Virus record (IMG/VR): IMGVR_UViG_2778261105_000004
Location: 1 to 7,660 of that record
Length of the DNA stretch: 7,660 nt
Strand: one strand, 5' to 3'
Source of the DNA: a virus
Taxonomy: Duplodnaviria > Heunggongvirae > Uroviricota > Caudoviricetes
The position numbers were made by a program, and so were the translations under genes. The notes below the pieces were generated by a model. It did not search any database. It saw only the letters and a program-made list of their open reading frames with translations, and had not been told where the DNA came from. Below, in pieces: positions 1 through 6,488 of the stretch (the first letter of the stretch is position 1; each line of letters starts with the position of its first letter).

Positions 1-419
1 TGCGTTGACTTCCCGTAGTCCCATTTACGCCCATTGTGCTCAAACGTGTAGTTCGCCGCTTCCATCGCATTACGCCACGCGTTTATTTCATCGCCCTTCA
101 TCCCTCGCGCTTTCTCCGCGGTCAGCAGGTCCGTGATTTTCTCCCCGTCAAAACCCCAGCGCCCGCTCAGGTCAATTTTCCGGTTCTCCGGGGTATCCGG
201 CACTTCTGCCACACTCTGGTTCACCGGCCACAGTAACGCAGTGTCCTTACCGTATCCCGTAATCACACCCCGGCTGTCATACACCACCTTCAGCGTCTCC
301 GGCGAAAACAACGCCTGACACTCATACCAGTCCTGACCATCCTCAGACTTCAGGTACATCGCGCCTGCAACATCCGGCTCCGCCGGGGTGTAATACGAAA
401 AATTTCTGATATGCATCAT
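1..419 (-). CDS. tfa: Tail fiber assembly protein (Tfa chaperone, Mu U / P2 G-like N-terminus); partial, C-terminus lies beyond position 1
   Basis: My own minus-strand translation from ATG 419..417 runs open to the window edge (about 139 codons): MMHIRNFSYYTPAEPDVAGAMYLKSEDGQDWYECQALFSPETLKVVYDSRGVITGYGKDTALLWPVNQSVAEVPD... This matches the remembered N-terminal pattern of P2 G / Mu U type assembly chaperones (MMHLKNI..., DGxNWYE, PDTxKxVYD, SVVEVPD). It lies directly downstream of stf as in lambdoid phages. It is not in the ORF track because it has no stop in the window. Confidence 0.7.
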   Translation of the reverse strand, partial: MMHIRNFSYYTPAEPDVAGAMYLKSEDGQDWYECQALFSPETLKVVYDSRGVITGYGKDTALLWPVNQSVAEVPDTPENRKIDLSGRWGFDGEKITDLLTAEKARGMKGDEINAWRNAMEAANYTFEHNGRKWDYGKST

Positions 420-640
420 GTTTCCGTGCCCTCCTCCGATACCGGCACCCAGACCGGCATTTTTTCCGCACCGACGCCCCGCTTCATACCTGCCGGTGCA
501 GCATCCGCTGCAAAGACTTTATACACCACATAATCCACCACAATACCGTCTTCCGGCCAGCGCCCTGCTGCCTCATAAACCGGCCGCAGGGACAGGGGAT
601 AAAACATATTCTCTGACGGTGAAAAAACATACTGTTCCAT
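416..640 (-). CDS. Small ORF (74 aa) resembling the N-terminal region of a second type of tail-fiber assembly chaperone; possible recombination remnant or small accessory protein
   Basis: ORF-track ORF MEQYVFSPSENMFYPLSLRPVYEAAGRWPEDGIVVDYVVYKVFAADAAPAGMKRGVGAEKMPVWVPVSEEGTET. It has a GAGGG SD 6 nt upstream of the ATG at 640..638. Its TGA (418..416) overlaps the tfa ATG (419..417) as ATGA, suggesting translational coupling. The motif FSxSENxFYP...YEAAGxWPxD...PxGxxRxxGxxGxPxW matches what I recall of the N-termini of one family of phage tail-fiber assembly proteins (memory, unverified). The ORF is in the same frame as stf, separated only by the stf TGA and three codons. Confidence 0.45.
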   Translation of the reverse strand: MEQYVFSPSENMFYPLSLRPVYEAAGRWPEDGIVVDYVVYKVFAADAAPAGMKRGVGAEKMPVWVPVSEEGTET

Positions 641-649
641 ACAATGCCC

Positions 650-2050
650 TCAGTATCCGATCGCTTCCCATGAAAACTTGCCGTAGCATCCCCTGACTGT
701 TATCAGAGTCACAGACACTAATGACGGATTCGACAGGGTATACATCTTAATGACGTTGGGGTCTCCCACTGCAGACACCTGAGCATTCAGAGCAGCAACC
801 GGAAAAGCGACAGGAAAACGGATAGAGTGTTGTGTCATAAGCTTACCATCATCCTCACTTACCTCAATACTGCCCCATTGCCGCAAACGACCGGTTACTT
901 CATCACGCTCCCAGCCATTTACTGTCAGGCTTGCTGTTGTGGGCTTGTTTTTTGTGCTGTAATCCACCCGCCAGTGAAAACGTTGTGTGTCTCCGTAAAC
1001 TGTACAGGTACAGACCGTGCCGTTCAGAAAACCATCGCCACCGTATTCGCCGATGGTGACCCGGACTATGGCTGCGTTATACGTCCCCATCACCTCAATG
1101 GCGCAGCCTCCCAGATTGAGTTTTCCCGGTCCGACATCCGTGATGACCTTATTAAATTCCGCAAGCAGTGATGCCTTCATCATCCAGTAAGGCTGGTCAA
1201 ATGCCCCCTTTTCTTTCAGCCTGGCCACAAACTCACTCGTGGTCCATTCACCGGTCTCCGTATGAATGTCCCGCCCGTATACTCTGGCTGCTCCCACGGT
1301 GTTCAGAAACTTCACCTTATCCGGGATATCGTCACCGTTTTTCGCTTTCTCCAGGCATCCGTCCGCTTTGTCCATTGCCGCTTTCACCGCTTTCGGGGTG
1401 GCTGCCTTCGTTTCATCATCACTGTCCGTTGCGCTGCTTAACTGCACAATTCCCTTCTGTGCCGTCGTCGCATCCGGTCCTCCCGGCTCGCCTTTTTCGC
1501 CCTTCTCTCCCCGTTCACCTTTCACACCCTGAAGCCCCTGTGGTCCTGTCTCACCACGCTCACCCTTTGGCCCACGCTCGCCGGTATCGCCTTTTGGCCC
1601 GGGAATACCCTGTGGCCCGGTGTCCCCCTTATCCCCCTTCGGTCCCCGCGCATTCTCTGCCCGTTTTTTTGCCTCCTCCGCACTGGCTGCGGACGCTTCC
1701 GCACGTTTCAGGATTTCCGCTGCCACCGCTTCCAGCTCTGCAAGGGCTTTCGGGTAATACTGTGCGTCTTCCAGGTCCATCAGATATTTATTCAGCGTTC
1801 CCGGTGCAGAATCCGCCTTCACCAGAATGTCACCCACATATGACGGCGCGTACCCTTCCGTGTTCAGCGTCACCCGGTACAACCCCGGCTCAACATCCAT
1901 ACTGTAACTGCCGGTTTCCCCCGGCTGACCATACGCCACCGTGGTGACAATCACCGTCTCCGTTGTGCGGCGCGCTTTCAGCTCTATCGTGCATCCCGGT
2001 ACCGCTTTTCCCGTACCATCCTTCAGCACACCCGATATTCTGACTGTCAT
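650..2050 (-). CDS. stf: Side tail fiber protein with collagen-like Gly-X-Y repeat (lambda Stf-like N-terminus)
   Basis: 466-aa ORF. The N-terminus [26 protein letters not shown]... resembles the lambda Stf N-terminus as remembered ([25 protein letters not shown]). It contains a Gly-X-Y repeat block ([55 protein letters not shown]) and the motif [12 protein letters not shown]...AATPKAVK that I also recall from lambda Stf. There is a GGGGGA SD upstream of the ATG at 2050..2048. Confidence 0.9.
1478..1645 (-). repeat. Collagen-like Gly-X-Y triplet-repeat coding block inside stf (about 19 triplets)
   Basis: Residues about 136-191 of the stf translation are uninterrupted G-X-Y triplets rich in Pro, Lys and Glu. 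The DNA here is a run of ggc/ccc-rich 9-nt periodic sequence on the plus strand. Confidence 0.8.
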
Positions 2051-2063
2051 GGATTTCCCCCAT

Positions 2064-2097
2064 AAAAAAACCGCAGGACCGGTTTCCCGGCCTGCGG
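2064..2097 (-). terminator. Rho-independent terminator (minus strand) ending the hok-like unit, immediately upstream of the stf SD and start
   Basis: Minus-strand reading is CCGCAGGCCGG-gaaa-CCGGTCCTGCGG followed by TTTTTTT (plus strand A7 at 2064..2070, hairpin 2071..2097). The GC-rich stem is about 11 bp with one bulge and a 4-nt loop, then a U7 tract, then atgggggaaatcc and the stf ATG. Confidence 0.6.
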
Positions 2098-2161
2098 TAA
2101 TATTTGTGGTTTGTTGGTGTTAAAACGGTGCCATCCGGCTGACCACCCTCAGCAACCGGTC

Positions 2162-2184
2162 GGCGGGGGATATTCTCCCCCGCC
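2162..2184 (-). other. Perfect 9-bp GC-rich palindromic hairpin 9 nt downstream of the hok-like stop codon (no U-tract)
   Basis: Plus strand ggcggggga (2162..2170), loop tattc, tcccccgcc (2176..2184). The arms are exact reverse complements. On the minus strand it follows TAA-gaaaccgtg and is not followed by a U run, so it is more likely an mRNA 3' stability or processing structure than a terminator. Confidence 0.4.
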
Positions 2185-2192
2185 ACGGTTTC

Positions 2193-2333
2193 TTACTGCT
2201 TACACTGTAAGAACGCCGCAATCTCCGCGCCCGCTATCCGGAACCGGAACTCGCACAGTGAAGTGTGGGTGATCCAGATAATGAGCACTACCGTGATACA
2301 AATCACGGTGGTTTTTAACGGTTTTTGCGACAT
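2193..2333 (-). CDS. hok: Hok/Gef-family type I toxin (46 aa small membrane peptide)
   Basis: My own minus-strand translation from ATG 2333..2331 to TAA 2195..2193 gives MSQKPLKTTVICITVVLIIWITHTSLCEFRFRIAGAEIAAFLQCKQ. It has a hydrophobic N-terminal helix (VICITVVLIIWI) followed by the SLCE-x-R...E-[IV]-AAF-[LM]-x-C signature that I recall as diagnostic for Hok/Gef/HokA-type peptides. The SD AAAAGGAG lies 9 nt upstream of the ATG and there is an in-frame TAA 6 codons upstream. The ORF is under 60 aa, so it is not in the supplied ORF track. Confidence 0.8.
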   Translation of the reverse strand: MSQKPLKTTVICITVVLIIWITHTSLCEFRFRIAGAEIAAFLQCKQ

Positions 2334-2486
2334 AAACGCTTGCTCCTTTTACGGAGAGGCGCTAACCTTTCACTTGCTTAGGATGAATGGTCAGGCCTCG
2401 GGTTAAACATGAATGTTTGTCCGGGGCCTTTTCACATCCGGCCTTCAGGTGTTCCCTCCGGCCATCAGCCAAAGGCACCCGCGCAT

Positions 2487-2515
2487 ACTGTACGGTTTTT
2501 GTCTCCTTCCGGCAA
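2487..2515 (-). promoter_or_regulatory. Candidate sigma70-like promoter for the hok-like transcript (TTGCCG - 17 nt - TACAGT)
   Basis: On the minus strand, TTGCCG (2515..2510), a 17-nt spacer, then TACAGT (2492..2487), located 17 nt downstream of the J stop codon. This predicts a leader of about 150 nt and an mRNA of about 415 nt ending at the 2064..2097 terminator. The hexamers match consensus only 4/6 each, so confidence is low. Confidence 0.3.
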
Positions 2516-2531
2516 TCCCGGGGCGCGATGT

Positions 2532-5500
2532 TCAGCGGATACTGATCCCCGCGCTGTTTTTCTTCACCACTATCGCCTGAAGGTTACTGATACGTGAACT
2601 GCCAAAACTCCCGTTCTGACGTCGTGAACTTACGGTAAAACTCAGGGTGATATGACCATGACCGGCTGGCATATCGATGATCCCGCTGAAAATTCCCGGC
2701 TCTGTCACTGACCTGCCTGAATAAATCCGGCGTCCGTTCTGATCAACATGCAGGAAGCACTCTGTCCAGATGTCATTACTGGTGCGGGATTCCTGTTTTG
2801 ACCCGACATAGATTATCGGCGGGATTATAATCTGCCGGTCAAAGCTGTGATCGTCATACACCGTCAGCGTTCGTGTACCGTTCGCAAGGTAACTACCATC
2901 CACCGGAAAAGCCACCCCTGCACATTTCACAAGATCACCAATAATGTTCTCCGCTTTCAGCGTGCCATTTATCGTACAGTTCTCCGCTATCACGACATTA
3001 TTCAGCGTGCCCGAGTTCGCACTGATATGTCCGCTGATGTCCGCATTGCGGGCCGTCAGCCTGCCCTCCGGCGTCAGGGAGAACGTCGGGGGATTGCCGG
3101 ACGAGGTGATGCTCACCGCAAACAGTCGCTTCAGGAACACATCGTTCATGAACAGCTGATTCCCCTGCGCCACAAACAGCGGCGTGGTGTTGCCGTTCTC
3201 CGGGTTAATCATCGCGATACGGTCCGCCTGCAGCAGTATATTGCTCAGGGGCTGGCCATCAGCATCCTCAATCCCCGCACCAATACCGGCAACATACGGA
3301 ATGCCGTTTTTTGTTTTCTGCACCTTCAGCATGTACAGCGCAGCCAGGTCGTTATTTGTGTCTGTCTGCACCCGCTGTATCTGCTGTATGGTGGCGCTCT
3401 GGTCTTCCAGGGTTTTACTGACCGTCTGCGTGATTTCATTGCGGGTTTCTGTGATGGTGGTCTTCATCTCCGCCATCTCATCATCAAGCTGGCTGTTATC
3501 AATCAGCTCCCACATCCCCTGTGCCAGATGCAGTTTTCCTATCTTTTCCCGAAACAGCCCCAGATACCCTTCCGCATCATTGCTGGCCCGGCCACTGGCT
3601 TCCACAAACGCAGATTTCCCCACCAGGTTGACGCTGCGCACATAAAACCAGAAATCCTTCCCCGGCTTAATGTGCGGGCCGGAGACACTCCACTGGCTGC
3701 CTGTCCCCAGATAACGGGCAGAGGTTTCCACCTGAGATGTGTCTGCGATTTTTGCCTCCGAAAACCAGAACTCAAATTGTACCGTCGGGTCATACACCGT
3801 AAGATGCGGGACCGCCGTTATCTGATAATACCCCGGCGTCAGTTCAATGCTGGCCGGTGCTGCCGGTGCGTTAATCCGGAACGTGGTGGTGGCAGGTTCG
3901 CCCTGCTGGCCGTAGCTGTTTATCGCCCTGACCGTCAGGGTGTATTCCCCGGGCGGCAGGCCACTGAAACGGTGCTCCGTGTCGGCAGTGATAGCGCTGG
4001 TCACCAGGCGGCTGTTTTCACCACTGCCACTGGTCAGGCGCAGACTGAAGCGCACGCCCTTCACCACCCGCGGCGTGTCCCATTTCGCCAGCGCCAGATA
4101 CTGGCCGTCTGAGGCACTCACCTCCACCGTGAGGTGCTGCACTGCCGGCGGGATGACGCTGTTCAGTGAACCGGTGAGCGGCTCAAAGGTGGCCCCGTTA
4201 TCCACGATGGCTTCTTTTTCCGGTACGTGCTGCACTGCCGTGATGGCAAAGGTGCCGTCCGTGTTTTCCCGGATGGAAACACAGCGGAACAGGCGACGAC
4301 GCAGTGACGGCAGGGAGAGTCCCCACACACCGTATGTCTCCACGCCATCAGGCAGGACGCTGACCTGTATCCGGTCAGGGGCGGGGTGTGCAGTGATGTC
4401 CACGCGCACCGGCTTACCGCTGCCGTTAATCAGGTTCACCGTCGATGTCCCTGCTTCCGGCAGTATCACCTCACGGTCCAGCGTCAGGGTACGGCTGGCG
4501 GCATCGATGGACAGGATGCGTCCACCGGTCAGGGTCCCGGCGTAGTCGTTATCACAGATTTCAATGATGTCACCGGGCGTGTGCCGCAGCCCCTGTGACC
4601 CGAGCGTGAAATCCACCGTCTGCGTTTCCAGCAGTTCTGTCTTTATCACCCACAGTCCGGCACGGTGGGCCTGACCGCGGCTGGTACAGCCGAACGCATC
4701 CATCTTCAGCAGATTGCGCCCGTAGCGCAGGATGGCGTCCGGGTCTTCCACCAGTTCCGTGGAGGTCTGCCAGCCGTTCTGCGGGTCGGTGTAATTCACC
4801 TCCACCGCCGTGTGCCGGTCCTTCAGGGCACTGAAGCTGTAGCGGAACCCCACGCCGTTATCATCCACCACCACATCGCTGTTGGTGTACGGCCACACCA
4901 CATCCGACGGACGGTCCTGAACGAACGTCAGCGTCTGGCCGTTCCATACCGGCATACAGCGCATCGCCGAGCAGAAATCCCCCAGGACATCCCACACCTT
5001 ACGCTGCTGTGACAGGTACGCATTGAAAGTCATCCGCGGCTCTGTTCCCCCGAAACCATCCGGGACCGTCTGGTCACAGTACTGCCCGATGGCATACAGT
5101 GCCCACTTGTCCACGTCCGCCGCCCCCAGGCGTTTTCCCATCCCGTAGCGCGGGTGGGTCAGCATGTCCCACAGGCACCAGGCCGGGTTATTGCTGTATG
5201 CCGGTTTCAGACTCCCGTCCCAGATACCGCTGTAGGTGCGTTTTTCCGGGTCATAGTTTGACGGCACCTGAATGATGCGACCACGGATATGGTAGTTCAC
5301 CGTCAGCTGCTGGCCACCAAACTGCTCCGCATCCACCTGCAGCCCCACAATCGCCGTGTTCGGGTAGCACTGTTTCACATCGATGATTTCGGTGTATGAC
5401 GACCACAGCGTTCTGTTCTGCAGCTGGTCCGTGGTGCTGTCCGCCGTCACCCTGACCATCCGGATGTTAAAGGGGCGCTCAGGGAGATTATTCAGAATCA

Positions 5501-5999: not shown

Positions 6000-6040
6000 T
6001 CTGTCCCCCTCTCCTGTCTGATGTCTGAATCTGTTTATGC

Positions 6041-6073
6041 CAGAAAACGACAGGCACCCCGGAGGGTGCCTGT
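6041..6073 (-). terminator. Candidate minus-strand hairpin with U-tract (attenuator or partial terminator) about 40 nt upstream of the J start
   Basis: Minus strand reads ACAGGCACCC-tccg-GGGTGCCTGT, a perfect 10-bp GC-rich stem with a 4-nt loop (plus strand 6050..6073), followed by CGTTTTCTG. The U-tract is interrupted, so termination efficiency is uncertain. Confidence 0.35.
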
Positions 6074-6099
6074 GTCATGACGGAATAAAATTTCTGAAA

Positions 6100-6138
6100 T
6101 TCTTCACATTTCCGGCAATTGCCTGTAGCCACTATAAT
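6100..6138 (+). promoter_or_regulatory. Unit A promoter-like element: conserved box TTCTTCACATT plus -10 hexamer TATAAT 33 nt downstream
   Basis: Box 6100..6110 and TATAAT 6133..6138 on the plus strand. The same box and a TATCAT hexamer occur at the identical 33-nt offset in unit B, although the intervening 22 nt are diverged. There is no good -35 (TTCCGG), which suggests an activator-dependent or non-canonical promoter. Confidence 0.35.
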
Positions 6139-6144
6139 GACGCA

Positions 6145-6247
6145 GCGTTACAGTTTTTTTGCTCAATAAAAGCAATAATTATCAGACCTCCTTAAGGTGA
6201 CTATTCGTCTCCCGTCAGTATCCGGCGATATTACGGGAGATTTTTTT
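6145..6247 (+). ncRNA. Candidate small RNA A (about 100 nt), antisense to the tail operon, in the I-J intergenic region
   Basis: Predicted start about 7 nt after the TATAAT. The 5' region GCGTTACAGTTTTTTTGCTCAATAAAAGCAATAA is conserved with unit B. It contains an anti-SD-like CCTCCTT and ends at a strong intrinsic terminator. There is no plausible ORF with an SD on this strand. Confidence 0.35.
6208..6247 (+). terminator. Rho-independent terminator of unit A (plus strand)
   Basis: TCTCCCGT-c-AGTATC-cggc-GATATT-ACGGGAGA (about 14 bp of stem with one bulge and a 4-nt loop, 6208..6240) followed by TTTTTTT (6241..6247). Confidence 0.7.
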
Positions 6248-6339
6248 GCTTCAGCCACACCACAACATCCTGCTCATTTACGCCACTGGTACCCTGGCGG
6301 TCATCCGTTCTGTAAACCTGCGACAGAAAAAGTCTGAAT

Positions 6340-6378
6340 TTCTTCACATTTTCTGTACGTTCCCGTGGCAGATATCAT
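6340..6378 (+). promoter_or_regulatory. Unit B promoter-like element: conserved box TTCTTCACATT plus -10-like hexamer TATCAT 33 nt downstream
   Basis: Box 6340..6350 and TATCAT 6373..6378, the same box-to-hexamer distance as unit A. The flanking GTCTGAATTTCTTCACATTTT is conserved with unit A (TCTGAAATTCTTCACATTT). Confidence 0.3.
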
Positions 6379-6384
6379 TCCGGG

Positions 6385-6484
6385 GCGTTACAGTTTTTTC
6401 GGGTCAATAAAAACAAAACTCCTTGAACGTTAATCTTCATCGGTTCTGTCCCGCAGCTCCGCTAACTCTGCGGGATTTTTTTTT
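6385..6484 (+). ncRNA. Candidate small RNA B (about 100 nt), paralog of unit A, antisense to the tail operon
   Basis: The conserved 5' region GGCGTTACAGTTTTTTCGGGTCAATAAAAACAAAACTCCTT aligns with unit A. It ends at a strong terminator 5 nt from the I stop codon. There is no plausible coding capacity. Confidence 0.35.
6449..6484 (+). terminator. Rho-independent terminator of unit B (plus strand)
   Basis: TCCCGCAG-ctccgctaact-CTGCGGGA (8-bp GC-rich stem, 6449..6475) followed by TTTTTTTTT (6476..6484). Confidence 0.7.
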
Positions 6485-6488
6485 ATTT

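What the first reader, a model, noticed from the sequence alone, without database searches (positions are those of the whole stretch)
416..652. 74-codon ORF between stf and tfa: in-frame continuation of stf after TGA, ATGA-coupled to tfa, resembling a chaperone N-terminus
The stf frame reads ...[46 protein letters not shown]..., so the small ORF is in the stf frame and separated by one stop codon. It has its own SD and its stop overlaps the tfa start (ATGA). Its sequence resembles the N-terminal region of a tail-fiber assembly protein family different from the downstream tfa. This suggests a mosaic junction left by tail-fiber module exchange that retained a translated fragment, a stf C-terminal extension made by TGA readthrough, or a small co-chaperone. 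Any of these bears on host-range evolution.
Basis: partly seen in the sequence, partly recalled or inferred. Interest (0 to 1): 0.5.

Follow-up and report, generated by a model that had tools for sequence, protein, structure and literature searches.

The report
Stand-alone tail-fibre chaperone domain gene
The 74-codon ORF is a real, conserved prophage gene that encodes only the fibre-tip-binding half of a tail-fibre assembly protein; it was swapped in together with the fibre tip it matches, so it is an ordinary product of host-range module exchange with one unusual feature, a chaperone that lacks its conserved half.

Summary
On the minus strand, stf ends at TGA 650-652. Nine bases follow (GGG CAT TGT), then a 74-codon ORF (640-416) in the stf frame. 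Its TGA overlaps the ATG of the next gene (ATGA, 416-419).

The ORF is not a decaying scar. Five diverged E. coli prophage lineages keep it intact at 70-74 codons, with dN/dS 0.14-0.24, the same as the neighbouring genes.

The protein is homologous to the N-terminal, fibre-binding domain of Caudo_TAP tail-fibre assembly proteins (Tfa). It stops at the interdomain linker, so the conserved C-terminal domain is absent. In all 14 loci examined, this domain type sits directly downstream of a fibre ending in a Gp53-like_C tip. A related phage, 1720a-02, lacks both the tip and the ORF. The swapped cassette is window 393-941, which is the tip plus the ORF.

The downstream gene is a different chaperone, with a Mu-U-type N-domain and a DUF4376 domain.

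TGA readthrough is not supported. The in-frame relation is lost in another lineage and occurs at about chance frequency across phages.

Best reading: a separately translated mini-Tfa that binds the Gp53-like tip. This function is inferred, not shown. It is a new variant of a known kind, of moderate interest.

The parts
650..2050 (-). stf side tail fibre gene (466 aa): phage_tail_N, collagen repeats, Phage_fiber_2, Mu S/S'-like middle, Gp53-like_C tip
   Evidence: ORF list; Pfam; PDB sequence hits 8JU3 (res 224-376, E 8e-42) and R-pyocin fibre 6CXB (res 369-444, E 2e-7)
653..895 (-). Gp53-like_C tip domain of Stf (residues 386-466)
   Evidence: PF21882 E 6.7e-07, 30.2 bits, above the 24.9-bit cut-off
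393..941 (-). Exchanged cassette relative to phage 1720a-02: Stf tip (codons ~370-466), the 74-codon ORF, and the first 9 codons of the DUF4376 gene
   Evidence: blastn window vs L003: homology only at 1-392 (85.5%) and 942-5099 (95.8%). L003 has neither the small ORF nor Gp53-like_C
641..652 (-). stf stop TGA (652-650), 9-nt spacer and SD-like GAGGG (651-647) for the small ORF
   Evidence: Sequence; related lineages have TGAGGAGGG at the same place
416..640 (-). 74-codon gene for a stand-alone Tfa N-terminal (fibre-tip-binding) domain
   Evidence: phrog_19350 E 4e-47 and phrog_188 E 1.7e-14; tblastn to Tfa N-termini; dN/dS 0.14-0.24; AF2 pLDDT 91 for residues 1-67
416..419 (-). ATGA stop/start overlap with the downstream chaperone gene
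   Evidence: Sequence. The same overlap is in L002 and L013. It is replaced by an 11-nt gap in L011 and a 5-nt gap in L007
1..419 (-). 5' part (139 codons) of the 224-aa downstream chaperone gene: Mu-U-type N-domain followed by DUF4376. It runs off the window.
   Evidence: Translation; full gene in L001 5745-6419. Pfam DUF4376 E 3.9e-18; 5YVQ_B E 3.3e-15 over res 19-106

Best explanation
The ORF is a separately translated gene for a 'mini-Tfa'. It encodes the N-terminal, fibre-tip-binding domain of a Caudo_TAP tail-fibre assembly protein and ends at the interdomain linker, without the conserved C-terminal oligomerisation domain. It entered this lambdoid prophage together with the Gp53-like_C receptor-binding tip of Stf, as one recombination cassette placed in front of the resident chaperone gene (Mu-U-type N-domain plus DUF4376). 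Shown here: homology, gene integrity, purifying selection, cassette boundaries, and strict co-occurrence with Gp53-like_C tips. Inferred: it is made from the stf operon mRNA from its own SD and ATG; it binds the Gp53-like_C tip as that tip folds (chaperone and/or cap); and it works either alone or with the DUF4376 protein supplying the trimerising or cap function in trans.
For: Homology. phrog_19350 matches over its full length (E 4e-47) and phrog_188 Tfa at E 1.7e-14. There is 35-45% identity to Tfa N-termini in 49 phage records. A profile search found 405 homologues. Of 146 cluster representatives, 110 hit Caudo_TAP, 12 Phage_tail_APC and 9 DUF4376. The alignment shows the ORF ends where the linker begins.

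Selection. Five lineages have intact 70-74-codon ORFs with dS 0.46-1.9 and dN/dS 0.14-0.24, Fisher p 1e-5 to 4e-8. This is the same range as the tip, the U-domain and the DUF4376 domain. Frameshifted variants are singletons, against clusters of 30, 23 and 4 intact sequences. In a library of representatives clustered at 50% identity, only one representative scores below E 1e-30, the 74-aa one. The next-best hits are near E 1e-17, so I found no close full-length relative.

Fold. AF2 gives pLDDT 91 and a compact fold for residues 1-67.

Co-occurrence. Gp53-like_C lies upstream in the window, L002, L013, L011, L007, L004, L005, L006, L015, L016, L017, L018, L021 and L022. It is absent from phage 1720a-02, which lacks the ORF.

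Recurrence. 44 of 158 sequences examined are stand-alone-sized. Six stand-alone cases were checked in context. Five show no C-domain gene following; the sixth contig ends just after the gene.

Literature. The Tfa N-domain binds the fibre tip and the conserved C-domain trimerises (North 2019, as summarised in PMC9608196). DUF4376 proteins are experimentally shown fibre chaperones (PMC7289586, PMC10579305).
Against: There is no direct evidence of expression, of binding to Stf, or of any phenotype. The published Tfa model treats the conserved C-terminal domain as central to function, and this protein lacks it. The window's SD (GAGGG) is weaker than in sister lineages. No isolated phage in the 50,697-record collection carries a close (>=60%) copy, so all close copies are in prophages whose viability is unknown. 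Divergence of the small ORF correlates about as well with the U-domain (r 0.71) as with the tip (r 0.82), so co-evolution with the tip is not resolved within E. coli. No solved structure matches the fold.
Confidence: 0.65

Rival explanations
1. Neutral recombination scar: a 5' fragment of a foreign tfa gene that came along with the new fibre tip. It may still be translated but does nothing, like the tfa fragments in cryptic prophages.
For: The cassette boundaries show it arrived by module exchange. It lacks the conserved Tfa C-domain. A complete chaperone gene follows it. A few frameshifted variants exist.
Against: dN/dS is 0.14-0.24 at dS up to ~1.9, and the ORF is intact in five lineages with the same end point. 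Its selection strength equals that of stf and the DUF4376 gene. Stand-alone copies recur in unrelated phage types.
Confidence: 0.1
2. C-terminal extension of Stf by UGA readthrough: a fraction of Stf chains carry the domain covalently, like an intramolecular chaperone.
For: The ORF is in frame with a single TGA in the window and in three sister lineages. Natural in-frame fibre-Tfa fusion proteins exist (P0069, P0072, P0127: Gp53-like_C followed by this domain), so covalent linkage is tolerated.
Against: The frame is not conserved. L007 has an 11-nt spacer. Among independent phage loci only about one third are in frame, which is the chance rate. Met1 is invariant and an SD is conserved. No readthrough-promoting signal was identified.
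Confidence: 0.05
3. Virion-retained tip accessory: the protein stays bound to the mature fibre tip and takes part in receptor recognition, as reported for Mu Tfa, rather than acting only during folding.
For: Mu and Ur-lambda Tfa proteins are reported to remain on mature virions and contribute to host recognition (PMC9608196, citing North 2019 and Hendrix & Duda 1992). The domain kept here is precisely the tip-binding one. It co-travels with the receptor-binding tip.
Against: No data on virion composition. The DUF4376-type chaperones studied so far are proposed to be transient caps (PMC10579305). This overlaps with the best explanation rather than excluding it.
Confidence: 0.15
4. Translational-coupling leader: the ORF matters only because its translation delivers ribosomes to the ATGA-overlapped DUF4376 gene.
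For: ATGA overlap in the window, L002 and L013.
Against: The overlap is replaced by an 11-nt gap in L011 and a 5-nt gap in L007. The amino-acid sequence, not just the open frame, is conserved, and it folds with high confidence. Phage 1720a-02 expresses the same downstream gene without any leader ORF.
Confidence: 0.05

Closest known systems
Caudo_TAP (PF02413) tail fibre assembly proteins, e.g. the 143-158-aa Tfa of Escherichia phages 500465-1 gp33, HeidiAbel Bas97_0016 and Mu_3F6
   Same: The gene lies immediately after a fibre gene with a Gp53-like_C tip. The N-terminal ~67 residues are homologous (37-41% identity).
   Different: Those proteins continue into the conserved C-terminal helical domain (…W..Y…L…DTS.AP.I.WP..P). 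The 74-aa protein stops at the linker and does not reach any Pfam threshold on its own.
Phage Mu Tfa U / P2 gpG (PDB 5YVQ chain B)
   Same: Same modular logic: a variable N-domain binds the fibre tip (PMC9608196, citing North 2019).
   Different: The Mu-U-type N-domain is a different domain type. It is found in the downstream gene here (E 3e-15), not in the 74-aa protein, whose model matches no solved structure.
DUF4376 tail fibre chaperones (Alteromonas phages V22 gp27 and A5 gp9)
   Same: The gene after the small ORF carries DUF4376. Single-chain proteins that join this N-domain type to DUF4376 exist (P0151: 39% identity to the small ORF and 51% to the C-terminal 126 aa of the downstream gene).
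   Different: In this locus the N-domain is a separate polypeptide, and the DUF4376 protein has its own, different N-domain.
tfa gene fragments in cryptic E. coli K-12 prophages (from my own knowledge; not tested here)
   Same: Truncated tfa reading frames next to stf genes, created by tail-fibre recombination.
   Different: Those are treated as pseudogene remnants. This one is intact and under purifying selection in five lineages.
Natural fibre-Tfa fusion proteins (P0069, P0072, P0127) and intramolecular C-terminal chaperone domains of phage fibres
   Same: A Gp53-like_C tip followed by the same N-domain type, the same order as stf then the small ORF.
   Different: Those are a single polypeptide and keep the Caudo_TAP C-domain. 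Here a stop codon, an SD and an ATG separate the two, and the C-domain is missing.

Membership tests
Tfa / Caudo_TAP (PF02413) | Gene immediately downstream of, and co-oriented with, a tail fibre gene | tested here: met
   9 nt after the stf stop, same strand
Tfa / Caudo_TAP (PF02413) | N-terminal fibre-binding domain homologous to family members | tested here: met
   phrog_188 E 1.7e-14; tblastn to Tfa N-termini E down to 8e-11; 110 of 146 profile-search homologues hit PF02413
Tfa / Caudo_TAP (PF02413) | Conserved C-terminal helical (oligomerisation) domain | tested here: not met
   The protein ends at residue 74, at the linker. There is no Pfam or NCBIfam hit for the 74-aa protein even at E<=1.
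Tfa / Caudo_TAP (PF02413) | Required for folding or trimerisation of the cognate fibre; binds its C-terminal tip | not testable with these tools
   Only indirect support: Gp53-like_C lies upstream in 14 of 14 loci examined
PHROG 19350 (70-aa phage proteins, unknown function) | Full-length match to the family profile | tested here: met
   E 4.1e-47, residues 1-70 to profile 1-70 of 70
Programmed stop-codon readthrough extension | Downstream frame conserved in frame with the upstream gene across relatives | tested here: not met
   L007 has an 11-nt spacer. L004, L006, L015, L016, L017, L021 and L022 are out of frame. Only the 9-nt-spacer E. coli group, L005 and L018 are in frame.
Programmed stop-codon readthrough extension | No independent initiation signal for the extension | tested here: not met
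   Met1 is invariant. An SD (GGAGG or GAGGG) lies 5-8 nt upstream in all five lineages.
Pseudogene / recombination remnant | Relaxed selection (dN/dS near 1) and disruptions among relatives | tested here: not met
   dN/dS 0.14-0.24; intact in five lineages
DUF4376 fibre chaperones (for the downstream gene) | PF14301 domain, gene downstream of the fibre gene | tested here: met
   E 3.9e-18, 66.3 bits against a 25-bit cut-off

The most novel reading that the evidence does not exclude
Stand-alone N-domain 'mini-Tfa' proteins are a recurrent functional class. For fibres with Gp53-like_C tips, the tip-binding domain alone is enough as a folding aid or tip cap, or it works in trans with an unrelated chaperone such as the DUF4376 protein. 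That would mean the conserved Tfa C-domain, held to be the core of Tfa function, is dispensable or replaceable. It would also mean that a tip plus mini-Tfa is the minimal portable host-range cassette.
Probability: 0.35. Interest if true: 0.55.

Novelty: new variant of a known kind. Interest (0 to 1): 0.4.

Why it matters
Tail-fibre tips and their chaperones set phage host range, and they are the parts exchanged when phages or tailocins are retargeted. The current model gives Tfa proteins a variable tip-binding N-domain and a conserved C-domain that drives assembly. A conserved gene encoding only the N-domain, always next to the same kind of tip, points to one of two things. The minimal transferable unit may be smaller than a full tfa gene, or chaperone function can be split between two proteins. 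Either is directly testable by co-expression. The result would guide how much DNA must be moved to transplant a Gp53-like tip. It would also improve annotation, because RefSeq currently labels this gene 'hypothetical protein', 'phage tail protein' or 'tail fiber assembly protein' in different genomes.

Tried and rejected
- Pfam and NCBIfam gave nothing for the 74-aa protein.
- A PDB sequence search gave only spurious annexin and selenium-binding-protein hits.
- BFVD gave only marginal hits to unnamed 133-157-aa viral proteins.
I sampled contexts with the look-up of encoding contigs instead.
- A correlation of divergences (small ORF against tip, U-domain and DUF4376 domain) did not discriminate, with only five lineages.
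- A -1 frameshift fusing the small ORF to the downstream gene was considered. Tandem-N-domain Tfas exist (P0021, P0027, P0103). I rejected it because there is no slippery heptamer before the stop and the overlap is not conserved.
- North & Davidson 2021 (PMC7811200) is not held, and North 2019 was available only through its summary in PMC9608196.
- One paper search failed on a too-short term. Searches for Caudo_TAP and for Tfa mosaicism found nothing on stand-alone N-domains.
Full report
**1. The observation**

All genes in the window are on the minus strand. They run in lambda-like tail order: a K-like C40 peptidase (7636-7067), I (7169-6489), J (5999-2532), a small Hok/Gef ORF, stf (2050-650), the 74-codon ORF (640-416), and a gene that starts at 419 and runs off the window.

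The ORF's TGA overlaps the ATG of MMHIRNFSYYTPAEPD... as ATGA at 419-416. An SD-like GAGGG sits 7 nt upstream of the ATG. No terminator-like site lies between stf, the ORF and the next gene.

**2. What the three proteins are**

- **Stf (466 aa).** It has a prophage tail-fibre N-domain, collagen repeats, a fibre repeat and a Gp53-like_C tip at residues 386-466. Its middle matches the Mu S/S' fibre (8JU3), and its tip region matches R-type pyocin fibres (6CXB).
- **The downstream gene (224 aa in the 99.4%-identical locus L001).** Its N-domain is homologous to Mu Tfa U (5YVQ_B, E 3e-15, residues 19-106). Its C-terminal domain is DUF4376 (E 4e-18). DUF4376 proteins of Alteromonas phages V22 and A5 are experimentally characterised fibre chaperones (PMC7289586, PMC10579305).
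- **The 74-aa protein.** It gets no Pfam or NCBIfam hit. It matches PHROG 19350 over the full length of that 70-position profile (E 4e-47) and PHROG 188 'tail fiber assembly protein' (E 1.7e-14). tblastn finds 35-45% identity over residues 1-67 to the N-termini of 143-158-aa Tfa proteins in 49 phage records: P2-like, Mu-like, APSE, Klebsiella, Yersinia and Pseudomonas phages.

The alignment shows that the 74-aa protein ends where those proteins pass through a short linker into the conserved Caudo_TAP C-terminal region. AlphaFold2 with a 53-sequence alignment gives pLDDT 91 and a compact mixed alpha/beta fold for residues 1-67, with a disordered tail. No solved structure resembles it.

The ORF is a Tfa N-domain of a type different from the one in the next gene.

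**3. Real gene or scar?**

Related E. coli prophages fall into five diverged lineages that all keep stf(Gp53-like_C), then a small ORF, then a DUF4376 gene:

| Lineage | Small ORF length |
|---|---|
| window / L001 | 74 aa |
| L002 | 74 aa |
| L013 | 74 aa |
| L011 / L012 | 70 aa |
| L007-L010 | 73 aa |

Nei-Gojobori estimates for the small ORF give dS 0.46-1.9 and dN/dS 0.14-0.24 for all pairs except the closest pair, L002 and L013 (dS 0.12, dN/dS 0.35). Synonymous changes are in significant excess (p 1e-5 to 4e-8). The Stf tip, the U-type N-domain and the DUF4376 domain show the same range, 0.1-0.25, apart from that same near-identical pair.

Frameshifted variants in the protein database are singletons, against clusters of 30, 23 and 4 intact sequences. 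In the library of representatives clustered at 50% identity, only one representative scores below E 1e-30, the 74-aa one. The next-best hits are near E 1e-17. I therefore found no close full-length relative. The truncated state appears ancestral to this clade and stably maintained. That is not how a neutral remnant behaves.

**4. Origin**

Against phage 1720a-02 (L003), homology runs over window 1-392 (85.5%) and 942-5099 (95.8%) and is absent in between. The non-homologous block, 393-941, contains Stf codons ~370-466, the small ORF, and the first nine codons of the DUF4376 gene. The Stf part is the tip, which starts where the pyocin-fibre homology starts.

1720a-02 has no Gp53-like_C domain and no small ORF. 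Its stf is followed directly by the same U-type/DUF4376 gene. The tip and the small ORF are therefore one exchange cassette, placed in front of a resident chaperone gene.

**5. Why it most likely binds the tip**

The literature model, taken from PMC9608196 summarising North et al. 2019, is that Tfa proteins are modular. A variable N-domain binds the fibre's distal end, and a conserved C-terminal helical domain trimerises.

In every locus I examined, this N-domain type lies directly downstream of a fibre ending in Gp53-like_C:

- five E. coli lambdoid lineages;
- three phages with full-length Tfas (L004, L005, L006);
- six unrelated contigs with stand-alone versions (L015, L016, L017, L018, L021, L022).

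Three cluster representatives are even single-chain fusions of a Gp53-like_C fibre with this domain.

The domain also combines with different C-terminal modules. Of 146 representatives, 110 hit Caudo_TAP, 12 Phage_tail_APC and 9 DUF4376. One of these, P0151, joins this N-domain (39% identity to the small ORF) to a DUF4376 domain that is 51% identical to the C-terminus of the downstream gene here.

Stand-alone-sized proteins make up 44 of the 158 sequences examined. Some of these are clearly frameshifted or internally deleted. Of the six I checked in context, none is followed by a DUF4376 gene. Five are followed by an unrelated gene, by no called gene, or by the convergent arm of an invertible segment. 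The sixth contig ends just after the gene.

I therefore conclude, by inference, that the 74-aa protein binds the Gp53-like_C tip of Stf as a chaperone and/or cap. Whether it works alone or with the DUF4376 protein is open. Within E. coli the divergence correlations do not settle whether it co-evolves with the tip or with the U-domain.

**6. Readthrough and other rivals**

The in-frame relation holds in the four lineages that share the 9-nt spacer, but not in L007, which has an 11-nt spacer. Across independent fibre-Tfa junctions it holds in roughly one third: the E. coli 9-nt group, L005 and L018. It does not hold in L004, L006, L007, L015, L016, L017, L021 and L022. That is the chance rate. 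Met1 is invariant and an SD is present in every lineage.

Readthrough as a designed feature is therefore not supported. A low level of accidental UGA readthrough cannot be excluded, and the natural fusions show it would probably be tolerated.

A pure coupling-leader role is contradicted in two ways. The ATGA overlap is lost in L011 and L007, and selection acts on the amino-acid sequence. I saw no slippery site for a frameshift fusion to the downstream gene.

**7. Comparison and novelty**

The protein works like, and is homologous to, the N-domain of Caudo_TAP Tfa proteins. It fails one defining feature of that family, the conserved C-domain, so I do not file it as a complete Tfa. It is a full-length member of PHROG 19350, a family with no assigned function. 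RefSeq labels it 'hypothetical protein', 'phage tail protein' or 'tail fiber assembly protein' in different genomes.

I found no paper describing N-domain-only Tfa genes. The library is incomplete, however, and North 2019 and North & Davidson 2021 could not be read directly.

Verdict: a new variant of a known kind. It is an ordinary product of tail-fibre module exchange, but a conserved one, and it questions whether the Tfa C-domain is always needed. Interest is moderate (0.4). The functional claim rests on inference only.

Noticed in passing
window 2193-2480, minus strand: A hok/sok-type toxin-antitoxin moron sits between J and stf, where lambda has lom. It consists of a 46-aa Hok/Gef-family ORF (2333-2193) and an Rfam 'sok antitoxin' match at 2480-2322 (55 bits, just under the 59-bit gathering score, E 2e-10). 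RefSeq annotates the protein in relatives.
   Followed up: partly
window 6000-6488 (I-J intergenic gap); repeats at 6087-6175 and 6327-6416: There is an unusual ~490-nt gap between tail genes I and J with no long ORF and no annotation in RefSeq relatives. It holds two ~90-nt direct-repeat copies (74-82% identity) spaced 240 nt apart. There is no Rfam hit. Similar sequence occurs in 781 of 5426 complete E. coli genomes, at a median of 3 places each. It could be prophage small-RNA or promoter elements.
   Followed up: partly
P0021, P0027, P0103 (proteins): Some Tfa proteins carry two N-domains in tandem before one conserved C-domain (for example P0021, with two copies of this domain type). This is the single-chain counterpart of the 'small ORF plus U-type/DUF4376' arrangement, and it suggests that cassette insertion upstream of a resident tfa is recurrent.
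   Followed up: partly
P0069, P0072, P0127 (proteins): Predicted single polypeptides of 504-572 aa fuse a Gp53-like_C-tipped fibre, a short linker after the usual ...AIGY end, this N-domain and a Caudo_TAP C-domain. They are natural fibre-chaperone fusions, or stop-codon losses.
   Followed up: partly
L022 592-1675: An invertase-associated invertible-segment-like locus has one arm with a Gp53-like_C tip plus a 67-aa stand-alone N-domain gene. The convergent arm carries a full 134-aa Caudo_TAP gene.
   Followed up: no
L001 1-5339 (outside the window, downstream of the DUF4376 gene): In the closest complete genome, the prophage end carries a YadA C-terminal-domain (Eib-like) protein and an S6-family autotransporter peptidase just after the tail-fibre chaperone gene. 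These are virulence-type cargo at the fibre end of the prophage.
   Followed up: no
L007 4920-5279: In the most diverged lineage, the DUF4376 gene is followed by a DUF1353 protein that matches phrog_1158 'tail assembly chaperone'. It is a possible third chaperone-like gene in the same module.
   Followed up: no
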